Part shown: positions 1 through 62,184 of the stretch, piece by piece
How the letters are laid out: the number at the start of each line of letters is the position of its first letter
Position numbering within the stretch: position 1 is the first letter of the stretch
Assembly (NCBI GenBank): GCA_964016885.1
Contig: OZ024743.1
Location: forward strand, 160,766,001 to 160,830,000
DNA: 64,000 bases
Direction of reading: 5' to 3'
Source of the DNA: Eledone cirrhosa
Lineage: Eukaryota
Notes under the pieces: generated by a model
Database searches by the model: none
Told to the model about the DNA's origin: nothing
What the model saw: only the letters and a program-made list of their open reading frames with translations
Translations under genes and position numbers: made by a program

Positions 1-106
1 TGGAGGTCTAATCCGTTTGAAAAGTCGATTCATAGTTTAGGAACCAAGCGGCACTATTTTCCCAGCGTTGAAGGGATTTCAGTTCTTCTCTGTTGCAGTC
101 ACCTTT

Positions 107-709
107 CTATAATTTAGAGATCTTCTCTACCTTGGGGCCTTCGATCTTATTGTTGATTTCCAGGAGGATCTCTTCATCGATGGTTTTGATTTTTTCCTCA
201 TTTGTCTGGGCCCTCAATTTAAGAAGTTCAATTTCTGTCTTCATTTTTTCCAATGCCATTCTTTCCTTAAGGTGTCTTTGAGGTTCGGGTTCATTTGGAA
301 TGGACTTTATTTGTATTTTACGGGGGAGAGTTAGAGGGGTTGAGTTAAACCATTTTTCATATATCTCCACTTTGTTGTGATTTTGTATCATCTTCCAGAA
401 TGAGAACTTTCTGTCTCTGATGGATTTGTTCCATTTTGGAATTGTTCGAATTTTTATTTTGTATGAATCAATCTCACATGGTTCTTCGTTGGTTTTTCCT
501 GGGTTGGTAGTAGTGAACATAGTTTGGATAGTATCGCAAAGGTTTTGAAGTTTATCGCCGATTTCGGAGGGTTTGTATCCGGTGACGGTTTCCTCATTTG
601 TGGAGTCAAGTTTGTCGACCAGCACAGATAGGTTGGTGTTAATTTTCTTGAGCTCCTGTAGAATCTCTTCATTTGTGTTGCTACGAGTTGTATCTGTTTT
701 TGTTGGCAT
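107..709 (-). pseudogene. N-terminal, coiled-coil-like part of the Penelope-like ORF (MPTKTD...), interrupted by a stop
   Basis: ORF 107..763 with ATG at 709, directly downstream of the pseudo-LTR. Confidence 0.5.
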
Positions 710-890
710 TTTCTGTATCTCGTGTGAGGATATGATATTTAAAAGAATAGAGGTGTAACACACGAGTTATGATATATTGGTAAAAGGAAAAGAAAATGGT
801 GACAAATTGTTCCCAGTGAAAAGTAGTTTAATTAGGAATAAGTAAAAATTAGTAATAAGTATTGGTTAGTATTCAGTTTTGGTTTTAAGT

Positions 891-926
891 TTTTACCGGT
901 TGCGCATTTCTAATGCTTTTCAAAAA
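891..926 (-). ncRNA. Hammerhead-like motif with variant core (UUGAAAA ... GCAA)
   Basis: uuu-UUGAAAA-GCAUU aga AAUGC-GCAA-CCGG-UA-aaa. A second copy at 18324-18359 has core UUGAAAG. Confidence 0.4.
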
Positions 927-1085
927 TAATTTTGAGATAGAGCACCCGCTATGTTTTCTCTAATCTGATTAGTTTTGGAAATTCTACCTGTTTTATGTGA
1001 AAAAAGTGGCTCCAGATGTATTAAAATAAGTTTCGCGCCAAATCGTGTGTCGCAAAAATTCTTGTGGTCAAAACAATTTTGATTG

Positions 1086-1149
<64 letters not shown>

Positions 1150-4089: not shown

Positions 4090-4090
<1 letters not shown>
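1978..4090 (+). mobile_element. R4/Dong-clade non-LTR retrotransposon (RT + CCHC + RLE), 5'-truncated copy 1, disrupted
   Basis: Motifs GIFQGD, LFMDDLKL, CRIC..ETVAHIVSEC, RHD and PDLVV..DVACP..K. It has stops and a frameshift and is flanked by (AAT)n. Confidence 0.92.
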
Positions 4091-4133
<43 letters not shown>

Positions 4134-4145
4134 TTAATAATAATA

Positions 4146-5896: not shown

Positions 5897-5897
<1 letters not shown>
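4146..5897 (+). mobile_element. R4/Dong-clade element, copy 2 (chimera of copies 3 and 1)
   Basis: ORFs 4150..5541 and 5554..5823 are split by the same TGA seen in copy 1. Flanks are (AAT)n. Confidence 0.92.
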
Positions 5898-5940
<43 letters not shown>

Positions 5941-5952
5941 TTAATAATAATA

Positions 5953-7704: not shown

Positions 7705-7742
7705 AATAACAACAACAATAATAATAATAATAATAATTAATA

Positions 7743-9510
7743 ACCAAAAGCCTAGAGATCTTCAGGGTGGCAGATAACATCAGACAGTTGTTGAGCAAAA
7801 GTATGAAGTCCTGGAAAACAGAGTTATCATCGGGCGGAGAATCCTTGGGAGGCGTGAAGATCAAGAGAGGTATCTTCCAGGGAGATAGCTTGTCTCCTCT
7901 GTTGTTTGTCCTGGCCCTGATCCCCCTGACCAGTGTACTGCGAAAAGTGAGAGTAGGATACAAGTTGGGAAATGGAGAACTTACCATCATTCACTTCCTC
8001 TTCATGGACGATCATAAGCTCTTCGGGAAGAGTGAGAAGCAGTTGGATGTGCTTGTTGACACTGTCCGTATTTTCAGCAATGATATATGTATGCAATTTG
8101 ATATTAGTAAGTGTGGAGTCCTTGTGATGAAGAGGGGTAAATTGAGCAGAAGCAACGGAATCCAGGTACGAACAGGTGAGATGATAAAGGACATTGATAC
8201 TGAAGAAGGATACAAATATTTAGGTGTTCTGGAGGCTGATGACATCAAGAACAAAAAAATGAAGGAATTGATAAGAACTGAATACATTCGGAGAATAAGG
8301 AGCGTATTGAAGTCACATCTGAACAGTAGGAATGCCATAAGTGCAGTAAATTCCCGAGCTGTGTCTATTATTAGGTACAGTGCCGGAATTCTGAGATGGA
8401 ATGTTGCTGAACAAAAAGAAATGGATAGAAAGACTAGGAAGTTATTGACTATCTACAACATGTTCCACAAGAGGAGTGATGTCGATAGATTCTACTTAAG
8501 GAGATCTGAAGGTGGAAGAGGTCTTATCAGCATAGAGAGCTGTGTTCAGATGGAGAAAAACAACCTACGCGAATACGTGACTGATAGTAGGGAGCCAATG
8601 CTCAGAATTGTACAGAAGGAGAGGACAATAGACTAGGAGATGTCCAAGGATGAAATAACAAGAAGGAAGAGCAACCTTCAGGAAAAATCGTTTCATAGTA
8701 CCTTCTTTGAGAAAACTGAATTTAGAGATCCCCAGACATGGAACTGGTTGAAAAGCCGAGACCTTAAAAATGCTACAGAAGGAATGCTAATGGCTGCGCA
8801 AGAGCAGGCCCTCAAAACGAAGTGGCTGAAACATCATATTTACAAGGAGGAGGCTAGCCCACTGTGCAGTATCTGTGGAGAGAGAGAGGAGACTGTGGCT
8901 CACATTGTATCCGAGTGTAAACACCTAGCCCAGACTCACTATAAAGGCTGGAGACATGATGTGATGTGCAGGGTGATCTACTGGGACCTATGCAAAGTAA
9001 ACAATTTACCATATTCTGAGAAGTGGTATGAGTATAAGCCAGAGTCGGTGATGGAAAATGATCAAGTGAAGGTGCTGTGGGATTTTAGGATACAGACGGA
9101 CAAGAAACTCGAACACAATAGACCTGACCTGGTGGCTTTGGACAAGGGAAAAAGATCGCGCCTGATTGTGGATGTGGCCTGCCCATTCGACACGAGAGTG
9201 CAAGAGAAGGAGAGGGAGAAAATTAACCGATACCAGGACTTAAAGTGGGAAGTAAAAAGGATTTGGAACTGCCATGAGGTCAAAGTGGTCCCGATTGTCA
9301 TAGGCTCACTAGGTACTATCTCAAAGAGTTTCCAAGGATGGTTAAAGAAAATTGGTCCCGCCCCGCTTTTTGGAACACTTCAAAAGACATGCTTGCTGGG
9401 AACAGCAAGAACCCTCCGATACGTCCTAAATATCAGAGGCTGCAGGTAGTGACTTGATATTCATTTCAACAAACTTTCCAGTTAACCAACATCAATGACT
9501 GAGACTCAAA

Positions 9511-12700: not shown

Positions 12701-13204
12701 CAGGTTGGTGAGACTCTTGCACCCTCCTTCCCTATCCACCAATGCCACACAATCCCAGCGTGCATCTAAGATCCCGTTCCAATCGCCCACTAACACTAAA
12801 GAGCGGGACGTTCCAAGAAAGGTCTCCAGACGCCGGAAGAAATCAGGCCGCCCTGCTCCTGTCGGGGCATAGACGGCCACTAACCTGAAAGCTTGCCCGT
12901 TTCCGCTGGTCACGTCCAGCACCACCAACTTACCTTCTGGGTCCAGAAAGATGGCCCGTATGGCAAGATCCAAACCTCTCCGAAAAAGCACAGCAACTCC
13001 TCCACCCGATCCCGGACGGCTGGGAGATGCGTACACATCGTAGCCGCCGAAGATCGGTGCGAAAGCCTGTGCTTCGGAGATTCTGGTCTCGCTGATGGCC
13101 ACTACATCTATGTTTAGTGACCTGAGGTCGTTGAGCAGGTGGCCCTGCTTCCATGACGACCCCAAGCCACGCGCATTTATGCTGCCTATTCTGAGTGAGG
13201 TCAT
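9787..13204 (-). pseudogene. Tx1 ORF2 (APE endonuclease + RT + C-terminal zinc finger), frameshifted near 11200 and 9905
   Basis: Motifs SINARGL, GDWN, YLDR, YTDH, KSPGLDG, RQGCPLS, AYADD and ETVLHAFVQC across ORFs 11177..13204 and 9903..11264. Confidence 0.88.
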
Positions 13205-13238
13205 GTTGAAAAGGAGTGGAAAAGATGGGAAAGACCAC

Positions 13239-15233
13239 TTACCTTACTTCTCGTAGGGGAAGGACGGTTTTTCCATCCTTTTCACTGCTTGTGGCCTCCT
13301 CAGGAAGGATGTCCTTATAAATCCTCCTGGAGAGTGCTTGTCGGAAGTCTCCGATGTCTTTGGGGAATTTTTGTTTTAGTGTCATGTACGTTTTCTGTGT
13401 GATGCGAGTGATTTGTATGTGTGGAGGTGGTGTGAATTTTGGGGTTGTTGTGTAGTCTTTTTCTGTGATGCTGGTGTTGTGTTGGATGTAGTGTAATAAT
13501 TGCTTGTTTTTCAAATTTAATGCTGTGTAGTGTGTATCGTTTTGGTTGTTTTGTTTTGTTTGCGTTTGTTGTGGGTTTGTTTCTGTTTCGCATTTTGGTG
13601 ACTTTTGTGGTGTAGGTGATGGTGGTGTTGGAGTTAATGATGGTGATGGTGTTGGTGTTTGGGTTGATGGGGTTGGTGATGCTGGTGTGGATGGTGGCAT
13701 ATCTGTCCTAACTTTTTTGTTTCTTAGTTTATTTGTTTCCCTCTGTATTTTGTTTTTGGAGGGGGAAGGAAGAGAATTTTTTTCTTTTTTGGTTTCTTTT
13801 TTATTTCCGGATATCGTTTCCCACTCCTCGTCGTCACAATCTGTCTCCAGTTGTGATAGGCCGGGGAGTGGAAAATCCTCCACAGGCGTTAGTTTTGGTT
13901 GTGGCGTGGTGGATGGTGTAGGCGGTGGTGCTAGTTCTGAAGCGTTGGGTGGTGGTGGTGTTGGTTTTGCTGGTGGTGGTGGTGGTGTTGGTTTTGATAC
14001 TGTTGCTGGGGTTGTTGCTGTTATAGTTGCTTCTCTTGTTGCTGCTACAGTTGTTGCTGCCATCTCTGCTACTGGTGGTGTTGATGATTGTGTCACTGGG
14101 GTGGGTAGGAGAGGTGGCCTCAACCTTTTAGCCTGAGGGCAGAAAGCCCTTAGGTGGGTTCCTTCACCACAAACGACGCACCTAGGTCTTCTGCCCTGGA
14201 CAATTACCGTGAGGTGGCTGCCGTCAGTGAGGTCTATTACCTCTGGGATCTCCTCAATGTTTTTTTGGTCCGCTTGGATCAGGAGCTCCATCCCAGATCC
14301 GGACCAGTTCTCCTGCTTTTCTTTTGCTATTGCTATTATTTTTGTGTTGGCTTCGATTCCGGCGAGGACGGCCGCTATTAGCCAGGGAATTTTGATGGCC
14401 GGTGGAACGTGGGTCACCCTGATCTTTACGAGTCTCTGGCCACAATAGCTTGGGTCGAGTGTGAAGTCGTCACTTCTTAATGGGGCCATGGAGTGTTCTC
14501 TAGCCTCCTCTGGTGTTTCAAAGAACACGTCCACGGTTCCATACTTCTGCCCACGTCTGATGTGGGTTTTTCTTGCCCACATATGTCCCAAAGCTTTTTG
14601 GATTTGGGACTCGGATGCCCGTTCCACTCGGCGCGATTTTACATTTATCGTTCGATACGACACGGTGCATAGGCGCCGATGCTCCATTTTATTAGGTGGG
14701 GGGTTAGGCTGACCCTGTACCCATCTTTCTTTACTATTTGTTTGGCATTTTCTAAATCCTCCTGAGTTATCGTAAATGCTTCGAATTGTTTTGCTACTCT
14801 GGCGAAACTGGGGGGGGGGGGTTATAATGTCATTGTTGTTGTTGTTGCTATCGTTATTTGTGTTAATATTAATTTTAGTTTCAGTTGTGGTGGTGGTGAC
14901 GTCAGTCGTCTTTGGTGGGGAAGAGTCCATTTTGCTTGATTTCATTTCGACATCACGAGTTAATTTATTTTTTTCTTCTTTTGTTTCTGTTGTAGCGGTG
15001 GTGGTGGGGGTGGTGGTTGTTGCGGTGGTCGTGGTGGTGGAGGCTTTAACACCTGCAGCCATTGGTAATGGCGGGAAATGAATGTCTGCCTGAGACAAAT
15101 TTAAAATATTGCTACTGCTTATACTTTTTGTAGTGTTGGCAAACGTAGTAACATTTACAATGGTGGTGTCGGTGTGAGGTGTTAATTTGTGAGGAAGGCT
15201 TTCGGCTGCTTGGTGCAGAAGTGAATTAGCCAT
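13239..15233 (-). CDS. Tx1 ORF1 (gag-like; CCHC knuckle CVVCGEGTHLRAFC, Pro/Thr-rich tail)
   Basis: Intact 664-aa ORF immediately upstream of ORF2. Confidence 0.85.
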   Translation of the reverse strand: MANSLLHQAAESLPHKLTPHTDTTIVNVTTFANTTKSISSSNILNLSQADIHFPPLPMAAGVKASTTTTTATTTTPTTTATTETKEEKNKLTRDVEMKSSKMDSSPPKTTDVTTTTTETKININTNNDSNNNNNDIITPPPQFRQSSKTIRSIYDNSGGFRKCQTNSKERWVQGQPNPPPNKMEHRRLCTVSYRTINVKSRRVERASESQIQKALGHMWARKTHIRRGQKYGTVDVFFETPEEAREHSMAPLRSDDFTLDPSYCGQRLVKIRVTHVPPAIKIPWLIAAVLAGIEANTKIIAIAKEKQENWSGSGMELLIQADQKNIEEIPEVIDLTDGSHLTVIVQGRRPRCVVCGEGTHLRAFCPQAKRLRPPLLPTPVTQSSTPPVAEMAATTVAATREATITATTPATVSKPTPPPPPAKPTPPPPNASELAPPPTPSTTPQPKLTPVEDFPLPGLSQLETDCDDEEWETISGNKKETKKEKNSLPSPSKNKIQRETNKLRNKKVRTDMPPSTPASPTPSTQTPTPSPSLTPTPPSPTPQKSPKCETETNPQQTQTKQNNQNDTHYTALNLKNKQLLHYIQHNTSITEKDYTTTPKFTPPPHIQITRITQKTYMTLKQKFPKDIGDFRQALSRRIYKDILPEEATSSEKDGKTVLPLREVR

Positions 15234-15457
15234 TTTTTTTCAAAGAAATTTTTTGATAATAATAAAAGTTTAAATTTTGGGCACAAAGCCCCAATCTTTT
15301 TGGGTGTCCTTTTCGGAAAACGATGTATGTGCGCTTATATATGGTTAACAATAAAAAATTTCCATAAATGGCAATTTTTAAGAAACGGAAATAACAAACT
15401 TTTGCGGAGCTCACGATGATACGATTTACTACGTAGGTCGCCAATAATAATAATAAT

Positions 15458-18134: not shown

Positions 18135-18210
<76 letters not shown>

Positions 18211-18211
18211 T

Positions 18212-21010
<2,799 letters not shown>

Positions 21011-21032: not shown

Positions 21033-21139
<107 letters not shown>

Positions 21140-21277
21140 AGTGTAAGTTTCTACACAAAACGAAGGTTATAGAGAAAATTGAGGTTGGTAATGGCACATG
21201 GAATATATAAGAGACAGAATACTTTTTTGTGAAAAAACATATCATTTTATAAGGTAAGGAAAGAATAAAGGGTATAA

Positions 21278-21325
21278 AAAATGACCGGTTTCGATGGGTC
21301 TCCAAAAGCCATCTTTTCAAATGTT
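21278..21325 (-). ncRNA. Type I hammerhead, U3-A8 variant
   Basis: aacau-UUGAAAA-GAUGG..CCAUC-GAAA-CCGG-UC-auuuu; stem I is weak. Confidence 0.6.
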
Positions 21326-21679
21326 GATTAATATTAAGAAAAATTAATAATAAGAAGAGTTAAAATTTGAGATTTGAAAATTCAAGTATAAAATTCAGTG
21401 TGGGATTTCATAGTAGTTTTCATCTTGGTAGCAGCAAGCTGACTGCTGTGTGTCCCCTTCTGGCAGTGAATGAGGAATTATTTGTGGGGAGTGGTTCTTT
21501 TCAAGGTCAGATTTAGCAATGGCCAGACGGCCAGCTGCTGGTCAGTGAGGGGGTGGAAGCAATATACATACATACATCTCCATCTGGTCGGTAGGAGAGG
21601 GGAGAGTGATAGAAAGGGATTTAGTGCACTTACACCCATATATACACATACCCTCATCCACACACACATACATATACAT

Positions 21680-21752
<73 letters not shown>

Positions 21753-23312
21753 TACATACACACACACATACATATACATACACACATACACACACACATA
21801 TATACACATACACACACATATATATACACACACACACATATATATACATACACATACATCCAGATACACACATACATACACACCTCAATTTTATCTCTCT
21901 CTATATATATATATTTATTTATTTATTATATGTATATCGTTTCATTAATACCTATAATACTCTCTATATATATATTTGAACAAATTTGTCTATCTAGTAT
22001 AATAACATGCTCGTAATTACATTTATAAGTAATTTAGATACTCAAATGACTCTCTATTGTTATAAGTGTTAGATATTTCCTTAATGTTCGAAATTATATA
22101 ACGATTATTACTTAATTTAATTTAATTTATTTTATTTTTATTTTAATTAAATTTAGATTACCTTCGGCTCATTCAAATCCTTAGATCCTCTTTCTATCAT
22201 CTTCGTGGACATTTTAGAAGTGTCTTTTGTCTACTATATAATAAAACCCTCTTGCATTTTAAACTATATTTTTTAATATTGGGCATTTTTATGTTTCGCA
22301 AACAATTCATTATTTTTTCACTTTTATTTTGTATCTAGTCCTTATCCTTAGGACTCATGAAGTTTTGACTTATATATATATAGTATATATCTATTAAATA
22401 ATCCTATTGCAATAATTGATCTAAAACATTAATTTTTAACAATATTTTCAGTAACTTATTTACGATATTGTAATATGTTATGTATATTTGAAAGGTATCA
22501 TCTTAAGTCTTTCTTTAGACAATATAATCTTTGTGTATTTTTTTGATAACCGCATATATGTAATTTAAAATTCAGACCTTTTTAAGTTTAATTATAAGGC
22601 CTGTTGATCCTTTAGGCACTCAAATTGTTAATAATAAATTCTTTAAAAATTATAATTGTAATTATTTTCTAAATTATATTATATAAACTGTTGTCAATAT
22701 TATATAATATATTTGGTAAAGTTTACCTTCGTGAGGTTGTAAAAACATTATGTTTTCTTTCTCGTGTTTGCAAATCCTTTAAATTTGATTTCATAAAATT
22801 TGATTTTAGAAATTAAATTTGATAGTATTTAATATTAATACAGATACTTATTAACTTTTAAAACCTAAAATATTATTCATTACTCTGAACTAACTTAATT
22901 TAAATATTTTGAATATTAACGGTCAACCAGATATGTTTAGATATATACTGTATATATGGCTAATTGTCTAAAGACTTGAACATAAGTTATTCCTCTGTAT
23001 CTCTCTCTCTCTCTGTAATCAACTCTTTGTTTTTCTAGGCTCCTACTAACTATATCATCCCCTCATCATGTTCTTCCTCTACGCTTTTCTTTTCTTTCCT
23101 CTTTCTTCAGTAATTTAAATTATTTAACAGTTATATTGATGCCAAGTATTTTTTTAAGCTGTCTCACACACACCCTCTCTATTGTATGTATTATATATTT
23201 TTCTTATGTTCTCAATATTAAGGTATATACATTTTGAGTTTTGTCATACATTACTCACTACCATGACTGAATCTTAACCATGTACTATGTCAGGGTATGT
23301 CATGCGTCATCT

Positions 23313-23379: not shown

Positions 23380-23474
23380 TACTTTATCACAAGAATATCT
23401 ATTTTGTTAATATTTTGAATTAATATATATATATATGAATTATAAGAATCAAAGAACTGTTCAAAACATGTTTA

Positions 23475-23521
23475 TGCTTACAACTGTTTCCTCCAAACCG
23501 AGGTTTGGATTCTTCGGAGCA
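23475..23521 (-). ncRNA. Type I hammerhead with CCGAAGA (U4C) core, left arm
   Basis: Reverse complement of 24063-24109. Confidence 0.65.
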
Positions 23522-24062
23522 ATTTATTATTGAATGAACACTTATATGACCTCCTTTTCACCCAAGATACATATGCAAATATTGTGGGTCAACATTCATT
23601 ACAGCATTTAGTGTGGCAGTACACATTTAGAGATTACATTCATATTAAAAGATACAAACAAAAATACAGGTTAAAATACAACATGAAATTAAGCGGTTAT
23701 AGAGTGCAATGGTTATACGTGTGGCAAGCACGTGCGTCTTGTTTATATAGTGTGGCAGATCAACCAGATCAACCCCCTTAACACTCTTGATTACCTGCTT
23801 AAGTGCTTCTATTACACGTAACTCTCTGCCACACTATATAAACAAGACGCACGTGCTTGCCACACGTATAACCATTGCACTCTATAACCGCTTAATTTCA
23901 TGATGTATTTTAACCTGTATTTTTGGTTGTATCTTTTAATATGAATGTAATCTCTAAATGTGTACTGCCACACTAAATGCTGTAATGAATGTTGACCCAC
24001 AATATTTGCATATGTATCTTGGGTGAAAAGGAGGTCATATAAGTGTTCATTCAATAATAAAT

Positions 24063-24109
24063 TGCTCCGAAGAATCCAAACCTCGGTTTGGAGGAAACAG
24101 TTGTAAGCA
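24063..24109 (+). ncRNA. Type I hammerhead with CCGAAGA (U4C) core, right arm
   Basis: UGCU-CCGAAGA-a UCCAAAC cucg GUUUGGA g-GAAA-CAGUUG-UA-AGCA. Confidence 0.65.
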
Positions 24110-24320
24110 TAAAAATGTTTTGAACAGTTCTTTGATTCTTATAATTCATATAACTGCTCTGTAAATCATCTGATGTTATTACATTGAGCTATTTAACTTA
24201 CTGGTAATAAGGTAGTAATATATTACTGCCTACCACTATTTAGGATTTATAAAAATATATATAACTACAAAAGGTTTTTGTATTTGCATAACCATAAATA
24301 GTATACTTAATACTTAATAC

Positions 24321-31841: not shown

Positions 31842-33601
31842 CGAAGGAAATGTGGTAAGGAACCAGGTGGACCATAACGCACCAAAGTACTCAATACTTG
31901 AGGTAGTAGAGTGGGTAATAGGAACCAGTAGGACCCCGACAGCTGAGCTCAAGCCGTTTCGACAATCACTTTGACCATATATGGTCAAAGTGATTGTCAA
32001 AAATCAGTAGTAATTCTGTGGTTGCAAATTAGTAGGGGAGATGGTGGCTAAACCTGCCAGTAAGAGAAAGAGGGGAGGGGGTGGAGTAGACCCAATCAAG
32101 CGTTGGTAGTACCAGCTACAGCTGGGCATGAGGTCAAAGAAGATACAGGGGAGGGGGAGGGGGAGGAAGTCGGAACGGTAGGTAGAACAATGGGGGGTAG
32201 AAATATATAGAAAAGCAAATAAGTGTAAAGAAAAAAGTAAAGTAAATTAAATTCTACGACCTAGGTGTCAGGCTATTGGTAGGCTAGAATAAAATAAAGA
32301 AAGAAAGAAAGAAGTAAATAAATAAATAAATAAATAACGAAAAAAGTAAAAGAACTAGGTGGGACGGAATAGGCAAGGACCCTTTTAAGAGGTATAAGTA
32401 CGTAAATGATACGGTGACGGGTCAACAAAAGGGGCCAAATACTAAAGAGACTACCACGAAATACACAATAAAGGTTTCCATCCCGGGCCAGCAACGACCC
32501 AGTGCAGCAAAGTGAACTTGTACGAGATAGTAATTCTGAGTCCCGAGAAAAATATATACTAATGCTAACTCTAAAAGATCTAAGACAAGCTACATGAAAG
32601 TTCGTACGAAATAAAGGTAGAATACGGAGAAATAAATTCAGAATCCCCCCCGCCCAGAAGAAAAGCGAAGCAAGAGATACTGAAACGAAAAAATAAGGCA
32701 TAAGTGCCACTAAGAAATATAGAGGGCACAGAGAATAGTGGGAGCGGTCGGAAAAAGGGGGCAAGTATCCGGGGTCTAAGCCAACTGCTATAAAGGGCGG
32801 AGTCCGCCAAATCTATCATAGACTAGGGGAGGGGGTGGTGGGGTACTAAGGCTACATGGGGCCAAAGGGCAGCCTCGGGTGGGCGAGAAAAGACGCCGAC
32901 AAAGGAGAAGAGCTGGGGTAGAAGGACAAAGGAGAGAGGGGGGAAGGAAATAAAGGAAGCGATAAAAGAATACAAAGAAGATCTTACGTCTTCCTTGGCA
33001 AGCAGGGGTTACCCATTGCAAAATCGGCAAGTGGGGTGTTATAGCCCTAGTCTACCCCCCCCCCCCCCCCCCCCCCGGGTCATTATGGGGTTTGAGGGCG
33101 AGGTAAGTCCTACGCAATCTATGTTTACATGCAGTAACCAGTTCATCTTTCTTGTTTAGGAGTTGGTCCGTCGAAAACAGCATTTGTAAAGTTTCCTCCG
33201 AGCATAAATTGCACGGACGGCGTCCTCCCGTGTAAGAATTGGCTCTGGACAGTAATCTCCAAGTGAGATCATAGGTGATGTTGTTGTCCTTGAGGTCCCA
33301 TATGTGGCCCGAAAGAGTAGTGGCGTGACGCAGGGCCGGGTTTCGGAAGGTATGTCTATGTTGGTATAGCCGGGTCTTGAAGTCACATGCGGTAAGTCCT
33401 ATATACTGGCAGGTTTAGCCACCATCTCCCCTACTAATTTGCAACCACAGAATTACTACTGATTTTTGACAATCACTTTGACCATATATGGAATTACCCC
33501 TTGAGAAGATCGGCTATTTAAATACCAGGATAAATTTTCATTTAGTCCAGAATTAGCCGTCGAAACGGCTTGAGCTCAGCTGTCGGGGTCCTACTGGTTC
33601 C

Positions 33602-39931: not shown

Positions 39932-41836
39932 TAATAAATTTGAAGACTAAAATCCAAAGAGGGCTCGATAATGATAAATATATATCAAATATATAAGAAC
40001 CGTAGAGCAAATATTTATTAAAATAACAGATTAAAATTTAAGCAAAGAATCGCTGCTTTCACCCTTAACGGGATCTTCTGAAACTAACAAAGTCAATCTG
40101 TGAACGCAGAAGTGGATATTTCAAAAAACGTTGCAACCGGAGGAAGACAGGAAGACGATACTTTGGTTCGTGGAAACGTTCCCTGGCAAAGAACGGGAAA
40201 AAACGAATATAAAACGTCATTAATAGGAGCGGTGAAAAACAATTACGCGCAAAGACAGAACCACGTTTATGGTATAAAAGAAGTCGTAGACTAATCTTCT
40301 CTTAGGTGGTTCATAGAGACGTTCTCTAGCAATGAACGGAAAAAACGAAGATAATACGTCATATGTGGGGCGTGGAGAACAATTGCACGCAGAGACAAAA
40401 CCACGTAAATGGTATAGCTGAAGTCGTAGACTAAAATTCTAACTAGGAGACCGAAAGAATCTCCGTTTCAGAGTAAAGAATAAAGTAAATAAATACAATA
40501 CAGGGGTAATATAAATTAAATAAATGCATACACAAATTCAAATACGTACATACACAAGCATACGCAAAACACTTGCTTTAGGTATACAAAACCACGCACA
40601 TATAAATATGTGTGTGTGTGTGCGTGTATACAAATAAATAATTAAATAAACGTATATTAATAAATAAATACGTATATAACAAGCGCACCCACATACCTAC
40701 ATGTAAATACACAAATGTTCGAAGACGTAAGTCAGCCATAACATGAAGTACACAAATACACACGCCCTACATACGTACGAACCTGCATACACACGCAGAC
40801 GCAAAACTCCCGTATACACATAACCAAACCATATGTACCAGAAAATATAAAAAATGTATACGCCACAACATAATCAATCAAATATACGTATGAGAAAGTA
40901 TACGTACCTTCACAAAACATACAGGTAATATATACTTACCTATGCAAATAAGTAATGGTATAAACAAAACATATACTTAGCTACCACATCAAGACGTAAA
41001 AAAATCCACGTATAGATCCTACTATCCGTTAGGGTATAATGTGGGGCTGTAATACAGGAAAATTTTGTGCAATTTATGTTTACAAGCCGAAATTGCCTCA
41101 GATTTTTTTGTTTAAGGTGTGGTCTGTGGCGTAGAGTATTTCCAGGGCCTCGGCGGCGCAGAGGTGACATGGTTTTTTATTTCCGTTATACGATCTAGCC
41201 CTAGCTAGGATCTCCCAGTGTAACTTATATTGGGTGTGGTTGTCTTTTAGACTCCAGAAATAAGCTGAAAGTGAGGTCATATTCCTTCTAAGAGGGTAAC
41301 GAAAAGAATGGGAATGCATGTAAAGACGCAGCTTGAATCTATTGGCGGTTAACCCTATGTAGACCCTACGGGACGTGGGTGTTTCAACCTTACATTTGTA
41401 GACAATGTTACTAGAGAGGCATTTCCCGGATAGGGGGCAATCGACCCGATTCCTACAAATACAGTTAGTACTAACTACAGGCTTGCACGTGTTCCTTCGG
41501 TTAGGTAGTTTAGCTAAATTTGAAACTGTGATGTTATGTGCAAGGTTAGGAGTCGTAGAGTAAGAAATTTTAATAGTATTTCTATTAAAAATTTTACTAT
41601 ATTTATGTGTAGGGGGAAAATGCTTCGTAATAAGGGAAAGAAAGATCTTAGCTAATGGTGTGGCCACCTCCATATTATATGGTGGGTTATACCAACAAAT
41701 GCGACGGGATCTATTACGTCTAGGTCTATCTTCGTCCTCTGCGTTTACAGATTGACTTTGTTAGTTTCAGAGGATCCCGTTAAGGGTGAAAGCAGCGATT
41801 CTTTGCTTAAATTTTTAATCTGTTATTTTAATAAAC
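39925..41836 (-). mobile_element. Penelope-like element family B, 5'-truncated, with an inverted pseudo-LTR at the truncated end
   Basis: GIY-YIG ORF present; 40014-40111 is inverted relative to 41738-41836; (TA)n flanks; hammerhead-like motifs at 40035-40085 (-) and 41763-41813 (+). Confidence 0.88.
41098..41673 (-). pseudogene. Penelope GIY-YIG endonuclease fragment
   Basis: CICRNRVDCPLSGKCLSSNIVYKC..VYIGLT..FKLR..H, followed by CHLCAAE. Confidence 0.85.
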
Positions 41837-43994: not shown

Positions 43995-46805
43995 GCATGA
44001 CATCAGTCAACGCGATCAGTTGCATATTTTGGCGTCGGAGACTATTCATTAAATTTAAGATGAATACTATCTCCAACAGTAATGCCACAACTACCAGTCA
44101 TATTGAATAACTGGATATTCTTCTACCTATATCTACTGAAGACACCTTTTATTCGAATTCGTGTAGATATCCGACTAAATACATAATTCATTTTACAAGG
44201 ATATGCTACAAACAGCATGGCTGAACATAACAACAAAAACATCAGTGGAGTACCGCAGAATAATGAGAAAGGTAAATAAAATTTATTCAGACAAATAACA
44301 AAGAAGGTAATCAAACTTTATTCAGTTGTAGCTACAGAAGAAACCAAAATTATGAATCGCATTTCTCTTGGAGTTGCGAACTTCATGATGATTTATTTAA
44401 TTGTTATAAAATGGCAAAAGAACAATCCCTCCATTGGCTATATGAACAGAATGAAGCTACACTGGGATGAAATATATCCAGAGCTAAATCACTTCACAGC
44501 GAAACAATTACGCCAACAAGCGACGTTTGTTGAACGTTAAAATAAGATAAATATGATTAATTGTAAGTCCCCCACAACAAACATGGAATCAAGAAAACGT
44601 GCTACAAGTCCCCATGCTACTAGACTTCCTAGCAGCCAGGTCGAACAGTTCCTTGAAACAACTATGCCTGTAAGAAATTTGACACCACGTGTACCATCAA
44701 AGTCTACCTCGAATGCTGGGTAAAACACTATCGATAATAATAATAATCGAATAATAATAATAATAATCGAAGAACTTTGACACCACGTGTACCATCCGAG
44801 TCTACCTCGACTATTGTGGAAAATACTATCGATAATGATAATAATCAAAAGTATAAACAATTGAAAATTTCCCTCAACGAAATCTTCCAGAGAGAAATTA
44901 ATTCATGTATAAACATTTCTCTTGTTGAAAGTTTTAAAACAACAATATTTAATAAAAAACCAAATAATGTAATATTACGTGTTATTGACGAAATAGGGAT
45001 GAATATTTACAACGGAAAAAAACCCTAACACTTTGGCAAATCAACGCCTGTTTATATGCCTTAGCAACGACAGTAAAGCATTATCTTGGTGATAGCAGAT
45101 ATATTAACAAGAACAAAACACCAACAAAAATACCATCATATATAACTAAAATAGAAAAAAAGATTGCTGACCTACGAAAAACCATAGGATATGTGACAAT
45201 GCTCCTTACATGCAAACAAACACAAAAAACCTCACTCCTCACCAACAAAGAGTGAAAAATAAAATAGAGACGATGTTTGGTAACAGTAGAACCAGAACTC
45301 TTCAATATAAGCTGATTACCCTCAAACAAGAATTGACAGATGTTAGCGAAAAAGACCGATACCTGAAGAAGGTAGATGAAAGAAAAGTGCTTAATAAAAG
45401 ATTCAGACGAAACCAAACATCAGTCTATAGAGATATGAAGGTCAAAATAATAAGTGTCACTGAGGCCCCATCCCAGAAAGACAGATTCCTTTTGGAGAAA
45501 AATATGGGGTGAAAAGAAGAATTTCCACCAAGATGCAGTGTGGCTAAAAGAATTCCTAAAGAACTATTGAGGGTACCCTTGAGATTGTGATAGGAAAACT
45601 CCAAGATAAGAAAACACCAGGAGGAGACATGATTGTCGGCTATTGGTACAAAAAACCGATATTCTATCGGAGGGGTCTTACTGACCTCTACCAACAAGTT
45701 CTTAAGGGTGATACACTTATACCAGAATGGTTGACATTAGCACAAACGTTACTGGTCCCCAAGAACAAAGACACCCACTTGGCAAAAATGCACCGACCCA
45801 TTGAATGCCAGAACCGGATGTATAAGATGTATACAGCCTGCCTGAACCTATTCCTCCAAGATCACTGTGAAAATAATAACATCATCACAGATGAACAAGC
45901 AGCTGGGAAGAAAGGGGTTTGCGGAAGTGCTGAACAACTCCTAATCAACAAAACTGCGATGTCGGAGGTGCGACAACTTAGGAGGAGTATGGCTACAGTC
46001 TGGCTGGACTACAGGAAAGCTTTCGATTCTGTTCCCCACTCTTGGAGTAATGAGGCTCTTTGACTTGCTAAAGTCCCAGACATTATTATCAGAGCCATAG
46101 AGAAGCTGTCTTCTTTTTGGGTTACTATCCTAAAGTTAAAGACAGAGAAGGAGGACTCTATTTTCACTGATAAAATAAAATATCGCAGGGTTATATTTCA
46201 GGGAGACAGTCTCTTTGTGATATTATTCATCCTGTCATTAAACCCCTTGTCCTTTCTGCTCAACAAATGTGAAGGATACATCATTGGCTCACAGGAGGAC
46301 AGAAATACGAACCTAACCCATAATTTCTTTGTGGATGATCTGAAACTCTATGCCAAGAACATGGATGGGATGAAGAAAAATCTTGACCTCGTTACAGCAT
46401 TCTCAAAGGATATAGGAATGGAGTTTGGCCAAGATAAATGCTCATATATGACTGTAAAGCGGGGAAATACAACAACCCAATCTAGCCACATTGTCATCAA
46501 TGGCCTAACTGTTTCACCGATATCTGATGAGGACTGTTACAGATACCTGGGGATAGATGAGAACATATCCTATAATGGTATCTGTAATAAGGAACGCGTA
46601 ACAAGGGAATACCGATTAAGAAATATATGGTCATCGGAACTCTCTGCGCAAAACAAAACAGCGGCTCACAGTGTGTTTGCTGTGCCTGTCCTAACACCAA
46701 CTTTTGGAATACTCAATTGGACGATAGACGAAATCCGAGCGATTGATGTTGGAACTCGAAAAATACTAAACAACACCGGAAACTTCCACATCAACAGTGA
46801 CATTT
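43995..46805 (+). mobile_element. (CATA)n-associated R4-like element, 5' end through RT, disrupted and 3'-truncated
   Basis: WLDYRKAFDSVPH and FFVDDLKLY; starts right after (CATA)n, at the same point as 58885. Confidence 0.85.
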
Positions 46806-47477
46806 CACTGGATTTCCCAGAAAATAAACCATGAAATTCAAGAAGCTTTGATAATCAGTTCTTCAATATAATCAGTTATAGAATGATACAAGTAGATAAA
46901 TAAATGATATAACTGACAAACCAGAAATTATGAATTAGTTCAAATAAATCTGAAGAAATTTTCAATAAATTTTCATAAAATTTAGAACTTATCAACTAGT
47001 TCAAAGACATTATCACTTAGTTCAAAGATATTCTCAACTAGTTCAAAGAAAGTATCAATAAAGCTAAAGATTTCAAAGGAAAAATCAATTGTTTCAAAAA
47101 CTTAATTATTAATACGAAATTAGCAATAAATTCAAAGTAATTACGAACTAGTTCAATGGAATTAGTAACTAGTTCAAATGTTTTCAGCACTGAAACGCAT
47201 CACACTAAATAAAAATATTTCTCGAAAGAGTATTTCTGACTGATTGGTTTAGAGGAAGTGCATCAGTATTTCCTATTGTTATTTCCGATACATAATTAGT
47301 TCATTAGACAGCATACTGCTGTATTACCTATGGCTATGAGTAGATAATTTATAATCCAATTATAAAATATGTACCTTACACATTAACTCTCTTGATTGGC
47401 TTTCTATGATCTCTCCAGCCAGGACTATATATCTGTTGATAGACTGCTTTCACTGCTCGTTAATCTATGTGAAGCCA

Positions 47478-49553: not shown

Positions 49554-49598
<45 letters not shown>

Positions 49599-49667
49599 AA
49601 AAAAAGATGAAATCGAAAAGGCAACTGGAGTCTTATTTTTAAAAAAATATATATATATATTTGGTTC

Positions 49668-49703
49668 CTTTACCGGTTTCGCAGTTCTTCTGCTTTTCAA
49701 AAG
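49668..49703 (-). ncRNA. Type I minimal hammerhead, U3-A8 variant
   Basis: CUU-UUGAAAA-GCAG aagaa CUGC-GAAA-CCGG-UA-AAG, ending a few nt before (TA)n. Confidence 0.8.
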
Positions 49704-51559
49704 TAGAGTTGAGATGGAGGGTCTGTGGTTTTTCTCACATCTGGTCTCTGAATGTTATATATATATATTTAAAGTGCCTAAGACACACCGTGTGTCATGG
49801 TCCTGTCCCTACGTCTCTATCAGGTGTTACGTGTAAAAAGAAAGGGATGTTATTAGAGCAAACGCCTAAATACTAGGCCTCCTGTCCATAGACATATGGT
49901 GGTCTTAACACTATCCACTTAACTTTGTCGCATTTTCTATAATGGTATTAACTCTGATTTTTAAGAAGATAGTATTAAGTATTCCAATAAACACAACAAC
50001 CAACGATGATTACTTTCTCTTACATCTATCCCTCAGTGTTGGAAACGAACTACAGTTCAGGAATTCCATATTTGTGAAGGAAATGGTATAAAATGTAAGC
50101 CACTCTCAGCTAAGGCGTAATCTTTTCAAATCTTATCCAAACATTTCTGGGCCCAGGGAAAGTTCCATCAATAGACACAGTCATCCTTTGCTAAACACAA
50201 TTTGATGTTATACTCTTGAACACCCCTTTACATACTATTTGGTGGTTGTTGCTGTTTTTTTTTTATTTTGCTCCTGATCAGCCTGAGTTTTTTCTGATTT
50301 ATAAGATCTGTTAACCGTTATGTCTTCCAGGTTGACGACCACGTAGAATATCTATCATTGGTGGGAATACACTTGGTGTATGACAGTGGTGATCAAATGG
50401 TGTTTTGTTACTAGAACTGTTACACTCGCATAAACATTCATCAACTTTAAGAAAGAAAATATAGTACCTCCAATGATAAATTGACGTCTATTTTACTGGA
50501 CTGTAATATGTTAAACACACAATAATCCACCACCAATTAAACATTTTACTCTTCTCGATTGCTTCTACAAAACGAATGCGCGTACTTTTCTTATTTTCAC
50601 TGGAGGTGTATCGACTACTCTGCTTTATGCTCTGAAAGATCTCAAAGTCAGAAATTCAAGTAGCGGCCAAAGCTGATTCCCAATTTCTACTGCCTTTTCC
50701 ACTTTTTCCACTTTCTATCACATTTTTACCCACTACATGCCACTTTCTACTCTGTCTCCCAATAGCTGCCATTTCTTAGTGCTTCCCACTAGTTCCATCA
50801 CTTCCTACGATTTTTCAATAGCTTCCTACTTCTGCATGTTTTATGGGAAGATTGAAACAATCTTCTGTTGCACCATACTATCTACTCCAAGCAGACATGA
50901 GGCTTTGATAATAAAATAACAAACTAACGAGACATTTTTTAATTATATAGTACCGACGCTTCTTACAAAAGTACACTGTATTAACATACTGTTTGTATTA
51001 AGAGATAGGTGGATTGAGTACAGTGACGGCGTATATTTTCCCATGAAACATTGAGCGTTCACAGATTGCCAATATATTTGGTCAGAAATGCAATTTTATA
51101 TCAAGTCACCCATACAATATGCAACATTTATCATATATACAATATTTTACCATACATTATCAATGAGTTGATCAAATAACTAGAACACTGAAAAGTATTA
51201 ATCTATATGTCATTATATAATATTCAAGATCTTATAAAAATCTCAATATAACATTGTATATATTACACGCCCTACAGTGTTATCAAATATACAATATCGT
51301 TGAGTATTGCAGGCGTGGAATAATTATTATACTGATGTTGAGTAATTGGATTAATCAACTGGATTTCTGGCTCACTCCGTTCAAGTCATCGTCGCTTAAG
51401 CGAGTCACTTAATTCATCCAGGGTTTCAAAGTTGACGGAAGAAATCGTTATTAATGTAGAAATATGAAGGCAAGAAAAGAAGCGAATACAATCTGCGATC
51501 CAGTTTTGATATACGATATCATTATATAATACGATTGTATTATCTTCCATCAATTCCAA

Positions 51560-58884: not shown

Positions 58885-61800
58885 CATGCATGACATCAGT
58901 CAACGCGATCAGTCGCATATTTTGGCGTGGGAGACTATTTATTAAATTTAAAATTAATATTATCTCCGACAGTAATGCCACAACTACAGCCAGGTTGAAT
59001 AACTGGTTATTCTTCTAACTTTCCCTTCTGAAGACACCTTTTATTCGAATTCGTGTAGATATCCGACTAAATACATAATTCATTTTACAAGGATATGCTA
59101 CAAACAGCATGGCTGAACACATCAACAAGAAAATTAAAGAAGTATCGAAGACAAATAACAAAGAAGGTAATCAAACTTTATTCAGCTGTAGCTACAGAAG
59201 AAACCGAAATTATAAATCGCATTTCTCTTGGAGTTGCGAACTTAATAATGATTTATTTAATTATTATAAAATGGCAAAAAACAATCCCTCCATTAGCTAT
59301 ATGAATAGAATGAAGTTACACTGGGACGAAATGCACCCAGAGCTAAATTATTTCACAGCGTAACAATTACGCCAACAAGCGACGTTTGTTGAACGTAAAA
59401 ATAAGATAAATATTATTAATTGTAAGTCCCCCCACAACAAACATGGAATCAACAACACGTGCTACAGATCGCCATGCTACTAGACTTCCTAGCAGCCAGG
59501 TCGAACAGCGCCTTGAAACAATTATGCCTGTACCATCTAAGTCTACTTCGAATGCAGGGGAAAACACTATCGATAATAATAATAATCGAGGAAATAATAA
59601 TAATAATCGAATAAATGTGACACCACGTATACCATCCGAGTCTACCTCGACTCTTGTGGAAAATACTATCTATAATGATAATCAAAAGTATAAACAATTG
59701 AAAATTTCCCTCAACGAAATTTTCCAGAGAGAAATTAACTCATGTATAAATATCTCTCTGGCTGAACGTGTTAAAATCACAATGGTGAATAAAAAACCAA
59801 ATAATGAAATACTACGTGTTATTGACGAAATAGTGGATGAATATTTACGACGGATAAAAACCCCAACGTTTTGGCAAATCAACGCCTGTTTATAATCCTT
59901 AGCAATGACAGTGAAGCATTATCTTGGTGATAGCAGAGATATTAACAAGAACAAAACAGCCCCAAAAATACCATCATGTATAACTAAAATAGAAAAAAAG
60001 AGTGCTGACCTAAGAAAAACATAGGACATGTGATAATGCTCCTTACATGCAAACAAACACAAAAAACCTCACTCCTCACCAACAAAGAGTGAAAAATAAA
60101 ATAGAGACGATGTTTGGTAACAGTAGAACCAGAACTCTCCAATATAAGCTGATCACCCTCAAACAAGAATTGAGAGCTGTTAGCGAAAAACGCCGATACC
60201 TGAAGAAGGTAGATGAGAGAAAAATGCTTAATAAAAGATTCAGACGAAACCAAACATCAGTGTATAGAGATATGAAGGGCAAAATAATAAGCGTCACTGA
60301 GGCCCCATCCCAGAAAGACATAGATTCCTTTTGGAGAAAAATATGGGGTGAAAAGAAAAATTTCAACCAAGATGCAGTGTGGCTAAGAGAAATCCGAAAG
60401 AACTATTGCTCCTACACTACAACAAAAACATACGAAATAAGTGAGGGTACCCTTGAGACTGTGATAGGAAAACTCCAAGATAAGAAAACACCAGGAAGAG
60501 ACATGATTGTCGGCTACTGGTACAAAAAACTGATATTTTATCGGAGATATCTTACTGACCTCTACCAACAAGTTCTTAAGGGAGATACACTTATACCAGA
60601 ATGGTTGACATTAGCACAAACGTTACTGGTCCCCAAGAACAAAGACACCCACTTGGTAAAAAACTACCGACCCATTGCATGCCAAAACCTGATGTATAAG
60701 ATGTATACAGCCTGCCTGAACCTATTCCTCCAAGATCACTGTGAAAATAATATCATCACAGATGAACAAGCAGCTGGAAAGAAAAGGGTTTGGGGATGTG
60801 CTGAACAACTCCTAATCAACAAAACTGCGATGTCGGAGGTGCGACAACTTAGGAGGAATATGACTACAGTATGGCTGGACTACAAGAAAGCTTTCGATTC
60901 TGTTCCCCACTCTTGGATGATAGAGGCCCTCCAACTTGGTAAAGTCGCCGACATTATTGTCAGAGCCATAGAGAGGCTGTCTTCTTCTTGGGCTACTATC
61001 CTAAGGTTAAAGACAGAGAAGGAGGACTCTATCTTCACTGATAAAATAAAATATTGCAGGGGTATATTTCAGGGGGACAGTCTCTCTGTGATATTGTTCA
61101 TCTTGTCATTAAACCCCTTGTCCTTTCTGCTCAAGAAATGTGAGGGATACATCATTGGCTCACAGGAGGACAGAAATACGAACCTAACCCATAACTTCTT
61201 TGTGGACGATCTGAAACTCTATGCCTAGAACATGGATGGGATGAAGAAAAATCTTGACCTGGTTACAACGTTCTCAAAGGATATAGGAATGGAGTTTGGT
61301 CAGGATAAATGCTCATACATGACTGTAAAGCGGGGAAAAACAACAACCCAATCTAGCAACATTATCATCAATGGCCTAACTGTTTCACCGATATCTGATG
61401 GGAGTATCAGGGAGGCAGAGGCATAACATCAGTCCAGACAACATTTGAATGTCGCATCATATCTCTCCAACAACATCTACGAACCTCGAAGCGTAGGAGC
61501 CCGCTTCTCGAGCAAGTCTATCTGCATGAAACAGATAAGATCATGAGAGTTGGGAAGGAACTCCTTGAGAGATATTCCCTGTGTGATAATCAAAAACTCA
61601 CACCCAGGGATGTCGCTCAGCAGTATCTCAGTGAATCCATGGATGAAAAACTGCATGCCTATCAGCAAAATATCATGCATGGATATCTTGCCAGGAATCT
61701 CCAAAGTGAGAGTAATGTAGATAAGGAAAGTAGTCTATCTTATGTCTTTATGCAGAACTGATGAGAAATCTGCAGATACTCCACCCTGATTACACCTTCA

Positions 61801-62184
61801 GATTTATGCCTGTGATTATTGGGGCACTGGGATATGTTAGTAACTGCCTCAATACAAATCTTGAGAAGCTAGGCTTCACAGGAACAGAAAGAACACAACT
61901 AGTTAGGAAATTACAAGTACAATCCATTAATGGAACAGTAAAAATATGTAAAACATTCCAAAAATGTGCATCTAATAACTGCATATACACATGTACAGAT
62001 ACAACTCAAAACATACACATCCACACATACAATAATATCCATATCTACACATGCATGCATGCAGACATACATACATATCTACCTAGTTGATGTGTAAATT
62101 CCAATGAGAGAGTCTTGTGTCTATGTTAGAAACCGACTCTCTCTCTCTATTGGTTAAACTTTGTGAAATCATAAAACCAGAAGA
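58885..62184 (+). mobile_element. (CATA)n-associated R4-like RLE element with both termini, internally deleted
   Basis: ORF 60047..61228 has NYRPIAC, DYKKAFDSVPH, GIFQGD and FVDD. C-terminus PVIIGALG. (CATA)n on both sides. Confidence 0.88.

What the first reader, a model, noticed from the sequence alone, without database searches (positions are those of the whole stretch)
49668..49703. Recurrent UUGAAAA-stem II-GAAACCGGU(A/C) minimal hammerhead class in unrelated elements
Seen: the same U3-A8 core and palindromic ACCGGU stem III occur with three different stem II sequences: GCAG/CUGC here, GAUGG/CCAUC at 21278-21325 and GCAUU/AAUGC at 891-926. Flanks are unrelated. Inference: sequence change with preserved pairing points to selection on a lineage-wide variant ribozyme class.
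Basis: partly seen in the sequence, partly recalled or inferred. Interest (0 to 1): 0.72.

Follow-up and report, generated by a model that had tools for sequence, protein, structure and literature searches.

The report
Penelope hammerhead with fixed core mutation
The three motifs are the hammerhead-ribozyme sequences at the ends of three related Penelope-like jumping genes, a known feature; what stands out is that one family spread to about 12,000 copies carrying a change in a core base that would likely weaken cutting, which suggests these elements may not need to cut their RNA in order to move.

Summary
The motif is real: about 19,900 exact copies in the 3.0-Gb host genome against 18 for a reversed control. 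The elements are not unrelated. The three sites are pseudo-LTR hammerheads of three sister two-ORF Penelope-like retrotransposon families (A, B, C; RT/GIY-YIG ORF2 55-58% identical, synonymous sites saturated). Core and palindrome are kept while stems I and II covary, so selection on the fold is supported. The U3-A8 core, short palindromic stem III and dimer cleavage are published for such elements, and this scan found them before on other DNA. This A13C change is the fixed state of family C (12,257 copies against 149 with another base), including young intact copies. Insertions carry the uncut motif: at most about 1% begin at the cut site, while 15 of 26 family-A copies begin 32-43 nt upstream of it. 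Best reading: a weak, probably protein- or dimer-assisted ribozyme whose cutting is not required for copying. I found A13C in no searchable paper, but could not read Lünse 2017. Cleavage is untested.

The parts
49668..49703 (-). Family-A type I minimal hammerhead with 3-bp stem I. U3 at 49700; stem II GCAG/CUGC; GAAA; ACCGGU palindrome; predicted cut after GUA between 49671 and 49670.
   Evidence: Sequence; same motif at pseudo-LTRs of intact family-A elements in 10 of 10 loci.
49592..49757 (-). Family-A pseudo-LTR stub (about 165 nt) between TA-rich/(TA)n flanks. It starts 57 nt 5' of U3 and ends 79 nt 3' of the cut site, one of the family's two recurrent 3' ends. No ORF.
   Evidence: blastn to loci and to a full-length element; end positions.
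21283..21320 (-). Family-B hammerhead: stem II GAUGG/CCAUC, 11-nt loop, GUC triplet, 2-bp stem I.
   Evidence: 2,061 genome copies; at pseudo-LTRs of intact family-B elements in 10 of 10 loci.
21129..21883 (-). 3' end of a 5'-truncated family-B element, ending about 152 nt past the cut site in (TA)n.
   Evidence: blastn 97% over 282 nt and 83% over 773 nt.
894..923 (-). Family-C hammerhead with A13C (GCAA); C13 is window base 902. It is the 5' pseudo-LTR copy of a full-length element.
   Evidence: no alternative base at 5% or more at 902 in contigs of two public runs.
1..1088 (-). 5' part of a full-length but mutated family-C element: pseudo-LTR, ORF1 ATG at 709. It continues about 4.2 kb past the window's left edge through ORF2 to a 3' pseudo-LTR.
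   Evidence: blastn 91-94% to an intact copy, across the window edge into locus L031; ATG position.
18327..18356 (-). Fourth motif: family-C hammerhead with A13C plus A9G, in the 3' pseudo-LTR.
18204..20703 (-). 5'-truncated family-C element: RT fragment 19940-20701, GIY-YIG 19536-19991, 3' UTR and 3' pseudo-LTR, inserted in (TA)n.
   Evidence: Pfam PF01541 E 3.6e-7; 93-95% aa identity to intact family-C ORF2. The RT fragment alone had no Pfam hit.

Best explanation
The three motifs are the hammerhead sequences in the pseudo-LTRs of three sister Penelope-like retrotransposon families, inherited from a common ancestor; they are likely weak ribozymes that would cut only as palindrome-paired dimers and probably with help from the element's protein, and cutting is likely not required for copying. 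Shown: each family has a hammerhead 168-192 nt before the ORF1 ATG and again after ORF2 (RT, linker, GIY-YIG); insertions end at two fixed sites between the hammerhead and the ATG; they include the uncut motif. Inferred: reverse transcription starts internally at those two sites on uncut RNA. Starting in the 3' repeat gives long 5'-truncated copies. Starting in the 5' repeat and running off an RNA end about 42 nt before the core gives stubs such as site 1. Family C fixed A13C and kept amplifying, so full catalytic speed is probably dispensable while the fold stays constrained.
For: Hammerhead beside intact ORF2 in 10 of 10 A loci, 10 of 10 B loci and 19 of 20 C loci. It is at both ends in L114, L117, L119, L122, L124, L078, L081, L088. 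ORF2 is 55-58% identical with saturated synonymous sites. Only N7 (A/U/C), H17 (A/C/U), position 13 and stems vary over 13 chosen representatives; 4 of 8 pairs show two-sided changes, including two in stem I, which was not filtered on; covariation 0.53 against at most 0.13 when slid. Monomer stem III is 2 bp; the ACCGGU duplex is 6 bp (-8.3 kcal/mol), and young family A cofolds as a double hammerhead. 3' ends cluster at +79/+147 (9 and 15 of 26, A), +110/+152 (10 and 15 of 28, B) and +134/+172 (37 and 17 of 59, C), matching the PLE two-start 'tail' (PMC11167929). Copies starting at the cut site: at most 175 (A) and 90 (C, about half local duplications) genome-wide. By contrast 15 of 26 A and 21 of 59 C copies start 32-49 nt upstream of U3. 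In Anolis Poseidon the hammerhead cuts only with protein, and core mutants still insert in vitro. A13C is in 12,257 copies against 149 with another base, which were 50 T, 35 A and 15 G in the first 100, a mutation-like spectrum.
Against: No cleavage assay. Stem I is only 2-4 bp. Naked-RNA folding does not give the hammerhead for family B (stem II probability 0.04 or less). For family C the UUGA core strand is sequestered in an upstream hairpin (p 0.98). The motif lacks the extra base after A9 that is typical of PLE minimal hammerheads. Absence of cut-site 5' ends shows only that cut linear RNA is not the main template; cut RNA could be degraded, or re-ligated into circles. The -42 end could be a fold-back hotspot rather than a transcription start, and family B shows no such cluster (5 of 28 within 55 nt). 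That A13C impairs catalysis rests on recalled mutagenesis and on A13 being listed as consensus core, not on a test.
Confidence: 0.68

Rival explanations
1. All three are working ribozymes whose cleavage is needed in vivo (processing of tandem transcripts into unit RNAs or circles), and C13 is a tolerated natural core variant in the U3-A8 background.
For: After A13C was fixed the rest of the motif stayed unchanged. Majority flanks of the oldest and youngest family-C loop types differ at 24 of 163 sites, with none in core or stem pairs apart from a position-13 sampling artefact (P about 0.02). H17 is never G and N7 is free, as catalysis requires. Cervera and De la Pena proposed cut-and-ligate.
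Against: No peak of insertions at the cut site in A or C. Stubs with a fixed 5' end upstream of the core cannot come from circles cut at the hammerhead. Anolis core mutants insert normally in vitro.
Confidence: 0.2
2. The motif is kept for a non-catalytic job: RNA dimerisation through ACCGGU, protein or RT binding, or as part of the internal promoter. The hammerhead look is ancestral and all three may be inactive.
For: A13C is fixed. Stem I is very weak in B and C. The 40 nt upstream of the core, and a UCAA 3 or 8 nt before UUGA, are also conserved between families, as a promoter or binding site would be.
Against: Conservation follows catalytic rules precisely in A, B and the older D/E types (N7 and H17 free, stems I and II compensating). 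This is hard to explain by DNA-level promoter function alone.
Confidence: 0.1
3. A free-standing, host-selected ribozyme class that arose in unrelated elements.
For: Family-B upstream flank shows no clear similarity to A or C. A U3-A8 core also occurs in a 316-bp tandem repeat with a different palindrome.
Against: The carrier proteins are homologous and the motif sits at the same place in each element. Copy number is explained by retrotransposition. No family with this pattern was seen among 120 metagenome matches (11 with a 4-bp stem, all singletons).
Confidence: 0.02

Closest known systems
Minimal hammerheads in pLTRs of metazoan Penelope-like elements (Cervera and De la Pena 2014, PMC4209133; main text parts 1-2 and supplement parts 1-2 read)
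   Same: Type I topology, position in both pseudo-LTRs, G10.1-C11.1, short stem I, palindromic stem III suited to dimers, opposite-strand pairs close together. U3-A8 with UUGAAAA is reported in Schistosoma mansoni Cercyon elements. A 2-nt CG loop III without the extra base after A9 is listed for Marsupenaeus japonicus.
   Different: No extra nucleotide between A9 and 10.1, unlike their consensus. U3-A8 is combined with ACCGGU. Family C has GCAA, whereas all rows of their Fig. S3 have GAAA.
Dimer-cleaving PLE hammerhead variants (Lünse, Weinberg, Breaker 2017; not held, seen only through reviews PMC6765202 and PMC7761336)
   Same: Diminished palindromic stem III, PLE association, dimer cleavage.
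   Different: Whether A13C occurs among their variants could not be checked.
Anolis Poseidon PAc hammerhead (Frangieh et al. 2024, PMC11167929; passages read)
   Same: Two internal RT start sites giving a tail, uncut RNA as the main template, no RNA ends at the cut site.
   Different: PAc is a single-ORF Penelope/Poseidon element with C3-G8 and the hammerhead overlapping the start codon. Here there are two ORFs, a Zn-finger-like linker, and the hammerhead lies about 170-190 nt before the ATG.
Neptune/Nematis-type EN+ PLEs (Craig et al. 2021, PMC8557442; passages and section 11 read)
   Same: C-terminal GIY-YIG, CX4CxxC linker, DKG and GLKF motifs, CxxC inside GIY-YIG plus two His, (TA)n targets, inverted 5'-truncated copies, optional frameshifted ORF1.
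   Different: Clade not placed on a tree. Not Naiad (EN is C-terminal) and not Hydra (DKG, linker and CCHH-type residues are intact).

Membership tests
Type I hammerhead ribozyme | Core Y3UGANR8A with 3-8 base pair | tested here: met
   U3-A8 at all sites; natural U3-A8 is reported as compensatory (PMC3088659).
Type I hammerhead ribozyme | G12 A13 A14 A15.1 | tested here: inconclusive
   Met in families A and B; not met in family C, where position 13 is C in 12,257 copies.
Type I hammerhead ribozyme | U16.1-H17 cleavage triplet | tested here: met
   GUA, GUC, GUU across families, never GUG in the 13 representatives.
Type I hammerhead ribozyme | Stems I, II, III with covariation | tested here: met
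   94% of cells paired; 4 of 8 pairs with two-sided changes. Rows were hand-picked from a catalogue filtered on stem II. Stem I is only 2-4 bp.
Type I hammerhead ribozyme | Folds as a hammerhead in isolation | tested here: inconclusive
   Predicted only for the young family-A dimer; B and C prefer other folds.
Type I hammerhead ribozyme | Site-specific self-cleavage | not testable with these tools
   Needs an assay.
Rfam hammerhead families | Covariance-model hit | tested here: not met
   No hammerhead family at E<=5 in the window.
PLE pseudo-LTR minimal hammerhead | Located in both pLTRs of an RT plus GIY-YIG element | tested here: met
PLE pseudo-LTR minimal hammerhead | Palindromic stem III allowing a dimer | tested here: met
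   ACCGGU 6-bp duplex, -8.3 kcal/mol.
PLE pseudo-LTR minimal hammerhead | Extra base between A9 and 10.1 (usual, not universal) | tested here: not met
   Absent in all families; also absent in two rows of the published alignment.
Neptune/Nematis-type PLE | CX2-5CxxC linker before a C-terminal GIY-YIG; DKG motif | tested here: met
   Motif scan of A, B and C ORF2.
Neptune/Nematis-type PLE | RT phylogeny with reference elements | not tested
Non-LTR retrozyme | Non-coding tandem unit of 150-450 nt with a canonical hammerhead | tested here: not met
   The three sites belong to ORF-bearing elements of about 5 kb.

The most novel reading that the evidence does not exclude
Penelope hammerheads are kept for their fold, not their chemistry. 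Family C lost catalysis through A13C yet amplified to about 12,000 copies with the rest of the motif still constrained, so the palindromic hammerhead serves as an RNA dimerisation or RNP-assembly signal for reverse transcription. The alternative, that C13 is a new active core, would also be unreported as far as I could search.
Probability: 0.3. Interest if true: 0.68.

Novelty: new variant of a known kind. Interest (0 to 1): 0.4.

Why it matters
The role of hammerheads in Penelope-like elements is described as unknown in reviews (PMC7761336; PMC8557442). Three sister families in one genome, two with a consensus GAAA and one with a fixed A13C, all with young intact copies, form a natural experiment. 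Side-by-side cleavage and transposition assays would show whether catalysis matters, or add a base to the set of tolerated hammerhead cores. The motif as flagged (U3-A8 plus palindrome) is ordinary for these elements. Descriptors that demand CUGANGA and GAAA would miss more than 30,000 motifs in this genome.

Tried and rejected
Rfam scan of the window: only microsatellite-driven miRNA/snoRNA noise, no hammerhead. C3-G8 with the same palindrome: 139 matches against 167 in the control, so no enrichment by count, although one small old family is visible. Further stem II types starting GG or GU: 22 against 11 in the control; one small family at most. Metagenome scan for the pattern: 120 loci, 11 with a stem of 4 bp or more, all singletons, treated as chance. 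RNA runs: no RNA holder listed. Cross-family rescue of family C by A or B through the shared palindrome: heterologous stem I is only 1-2 bp with C as substrate, so not favoured. A13C as a sequencing error or single-copy mutation: rejected. The RT fragment at 19940-20701 as partner of site 2: rejected, it belongs to family C. Cut-site 5' ends as a genomic readout of activity, A against C: about 1% or less in both, no difference, so uninformative on A13C. My automatic labels of those hits were crude and the denominators are approximate. UCAA/UUGA 'off' hairpin: strong only in C (0.98), weak in A and B in the longer context (0.12 or less), so not claimed as a general switch. Literature searches for A13C or GCAA hammerheads; none found. 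Lünse 2017, Martick and Scott 2006, a Scott review and one further article sought for A13 data were not held.

Full report
Observation. The three motifs are on the minus strand at 49671-49700, 21283-21320 and 894-923. Each reads UUGAAAA, stem II, G(A/C)AA, CCGG, U, (A/C). Two match the strict pattern and three the pattern with position 13 free; none appeared in 100 block-wise dinucleotide shuffles. Site 894-923 has GCAA, not GAAA, and a fourth copy with GCAA and A9G lies at 18327-18356. Rfam finds no hammerhead at E<=5. In the 3.0-Gb host genome the GAAA pattern has 19,949 exact matches against 18 for the reversed control; 92 of the first 100 listed are of the site-1 type. The GCAA pattern has 12,257 against 5, and the site-2 type 2,061 against 0. 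Types with N7 other than A add 2,411 against 36, part of them a tandem repeat with another palindrome. C3-G8 with the same palindrome is not enriched (139 against 167).

What carries them. A GIY-YIG fragment at 19536-19991 (Pfam E 3.6e-7) led to many genomic copies with a 784-codon open frame. Of 20 such loci, 19 have the site-3 motif nearby, always with GCAA, and three have it at both ends. ORF fragments next to site-1 and site-2 type motifs led the same way to 775- and 777-codon frames. All 10 loci fetched for each carry the matching hammerhead. All three families have an ORF1 (409, 427 and 455 codons stop to stop) overlapping ORF2 in the -1 frame with a U_UUU_UUA heptamer. ORF2 has GLKF, DKG, RYLDD, a CX4CxxC linker and GIY-YIG. 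These features fit Neptune/Nematis-type Penelope-like elements rather than Naiad or Hydra, as described in Craig et al. 2021 (PMC8557442; passages and section 11). No tree was built. In the window, site 3 is the 5' repeat of a full-length, mutated family-C copy running off the left edge. The copy at 18327 is the 3' repeat of a truncated family-C copy (18204-20703). Site 2 ends a family-B fragment (21129-21883), and site 1 is a 165-nt family-A stub.

Selection. ORF2 proteins are 55.5-57.7% identical, and four-fold degenerate sites are 32-36% identical against about 31% expected from composition. Yet 16 of 17 core and stem III bases are shared by A, B and C. In 13 representatives that I picked from a catalogue filtered for a 4-bp stem II, the variable core positions are N7, H17 and 13. 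Of 8 pairs counted, 4 change on both sides, two of them in stem I, which was not filtered on. The covariation score is 0.53 against at most 0.13 for slid controls; the rows are related, so this is not a probability. An older family-A type has the same GCAU/AUGC stem as the oldest family-C type but GAAA. With A, B and the older D and E types all A13, C13 is derived.

The A13C family. Only 149 family-C-type motifs have another base at 13; among the first 100 they are 50 T, 35 A and 15 G, as expected for mutation away from C. Contigs of two public runs (one study, possibly the source of the assembly) show no alternative base at 5% or more at that position. Three loop types exist, with median copy divergence of 4.0%, 3.5% and 1.0% from their majority (17, 37 and 45 copies; the oldest set was enriched for non-C13 by my sampling). 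Oldest and youngest differ at 24 of 163 flank sites but at no core or stem-pair site other than that artefact, P about 0.02. So the motif seems still constrained after A13C. A13 is part of the consensus core, and hits mutated there were discarded in Perreault et al. 2011 (PMC3088659; passages and section 8). That A13 changes sharply lower activity is recalled, not read here. Roberts et al. 2023 (PMC9901934; passages) gave no A13 value in the passages seen.

Folding. Monomer stem III is two pairs around a 2-nt loop; two molecules form a 6-bp ACCGGU duplex of -8.3 kcal/mol. A short young family-A RNA cofolds exactly as a double hammerhead (-22.5 against -15.0 for two monomers). Family B prefers another fold, and family C hides its UUGA strand in an upstream hairpin. 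Stem I is 4 bp in young A, 3 in site 1 and in C, and 2 in B. These results argue against efficient unaided cleavage.

Insertion ends. Among copies with an intact motif, 3' ends fall at two sites per family: +79 and +147 (9 and 15 of 26, A), +110 and +152 (10 and 15 of 28, B), +134 and +172 (37 and 17 of 59, C). All lie before the ORF1 ATG at +168, +174 and +192 (copies near locus edges or not matching the family pattern were dropped). This is the two-start tail shown for Anolis Poseidon (PMC11167929; passages). 5' ends cluster 32-43 nt before U3 in 15 of 26 A copies and 33-49 nt in 21 of 59 C copies, but not in B. Copies beginning at the cut site number at most 175 for A and 90 for young C, some being local duplications, roughly 1% or less of copies. 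I infer that the copied RNA is mostly uncut and that a transcript end, or a fold-back hotspot, lies about 42 nt before the core. This agrees with Frangieh et al., where the hammerhead cut only with protein and core mutants still inserted.

Comparison. Cervera and De la Pena 2014 (PMC4209133; main text parts 1-2 of 4, supplement parts 1-2 of 3) report minimal pLTR hammerheads, U3-A8 in Schistosoma, small palindromic stem III in flies, rotifers, shrimp and mosquitoes, low activity as dimers, and opposite-strand pairs. Every row of their alignment has GAAA. Lünse et al. 2017 was not held and is known here only through reviews (PMC6765202 passages and part of section 11; PMC7761336 passages); it and its supplement could contain A13C. 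Searches for A13C or GCAA found nothing. I also saw passages of PMC13282606, PMC12602865, PMC7229834 and bioRxiv 10.64898/2026.07.22.740005 (the bioRxiv supplement is closed); none bore on core variants. Earlier notes of this scan report U3-A8 PLE hammerheads in this and other genomes, none with the word A13C.

Verdict. A real, selected motif, but a known kind: the pseudo-LTR hammerhead of three sister Penelope-like families. The new element is a family-wide A13C in a recently amplifying family, which makes the open question of what these ribozymes do directly testable. Interest 0.4; new variant of a known kind.

Noticed in passing
L113:2108-5571, L124:288-3814, L088:3758-7407: All three families have ORF1 overlapping ORF2 in the -1 frame with the same U_UUU_UUA slippery heptamer; a frameshifted ORF1 is noted for some PLEs in Craig 2021 Fig. 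1 legend. The one ORF1 fragment scanned (window 107-763) had no Pfam hit.
   Followed up: partly
L147-L152 (G000:C1:6519946-6521556): A 316-bp tandem, retrozyme-like repeat with a U3-A8 core (N7 = U), stem II GCUU/AAGC and an ACAUGU palindrome; many arrays in the first 100 hits.
   Followed up: partly
window 49709-49712, 21324-21327, 932-935 (minus strand): UCAA lies 3 or 8 nt before the UUGA core in families A, B, C and most D types; it could pair with the core or belong to an internal promoter. The hairpin is predicted strongly only in C.
   Followed up: partly
L412-L431, L283: Older families (D, E) with the same core and palindrome but other stem II and N7/H17 bases. Two loci (L424, L431) lie near ORF2 pieces 72-88% like family B. 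One D copy (L418) also has GCAA.
   Followed up: partly
L114:7589-8555, L024: A tandem repeat of about 465 bp with a canonical C3-G8 hammerhead and an ACUAGU palindrome.
   Followed up: no
window 2000-9500: Four head-to-tail 1,807-bp copies of the 3' part of a non-LTR retrotransposon (RVT_1 hit, zinc finger, restriction-like endonuclease motif; R4/Dong-like by recollection), separated by (AAT)n.
   Followed up: no
window 9903-15239 (minus): Near-complete LINE with ORF1, AP endonuclease and RT (Pfam hits); L1/Tx1-like by recollection.
   Followed up: no
window 23432-24152: Inverted repeat with 328-nt arms, 99% complementary, 65 nt apart.
   Followed up: no
window 33052-33414 and 41098-41760 (minus): Two more ORF ends with YIG-like motifs, probably other Penelope-like types; no Pfam hit at E 0.01.
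   Followed up: no
window 45171-46834 and 59410-62090: Two degraded copies of another RT-bearing non-LTR family (RVT_1 hit at 60014-61225).
   Followed up: no
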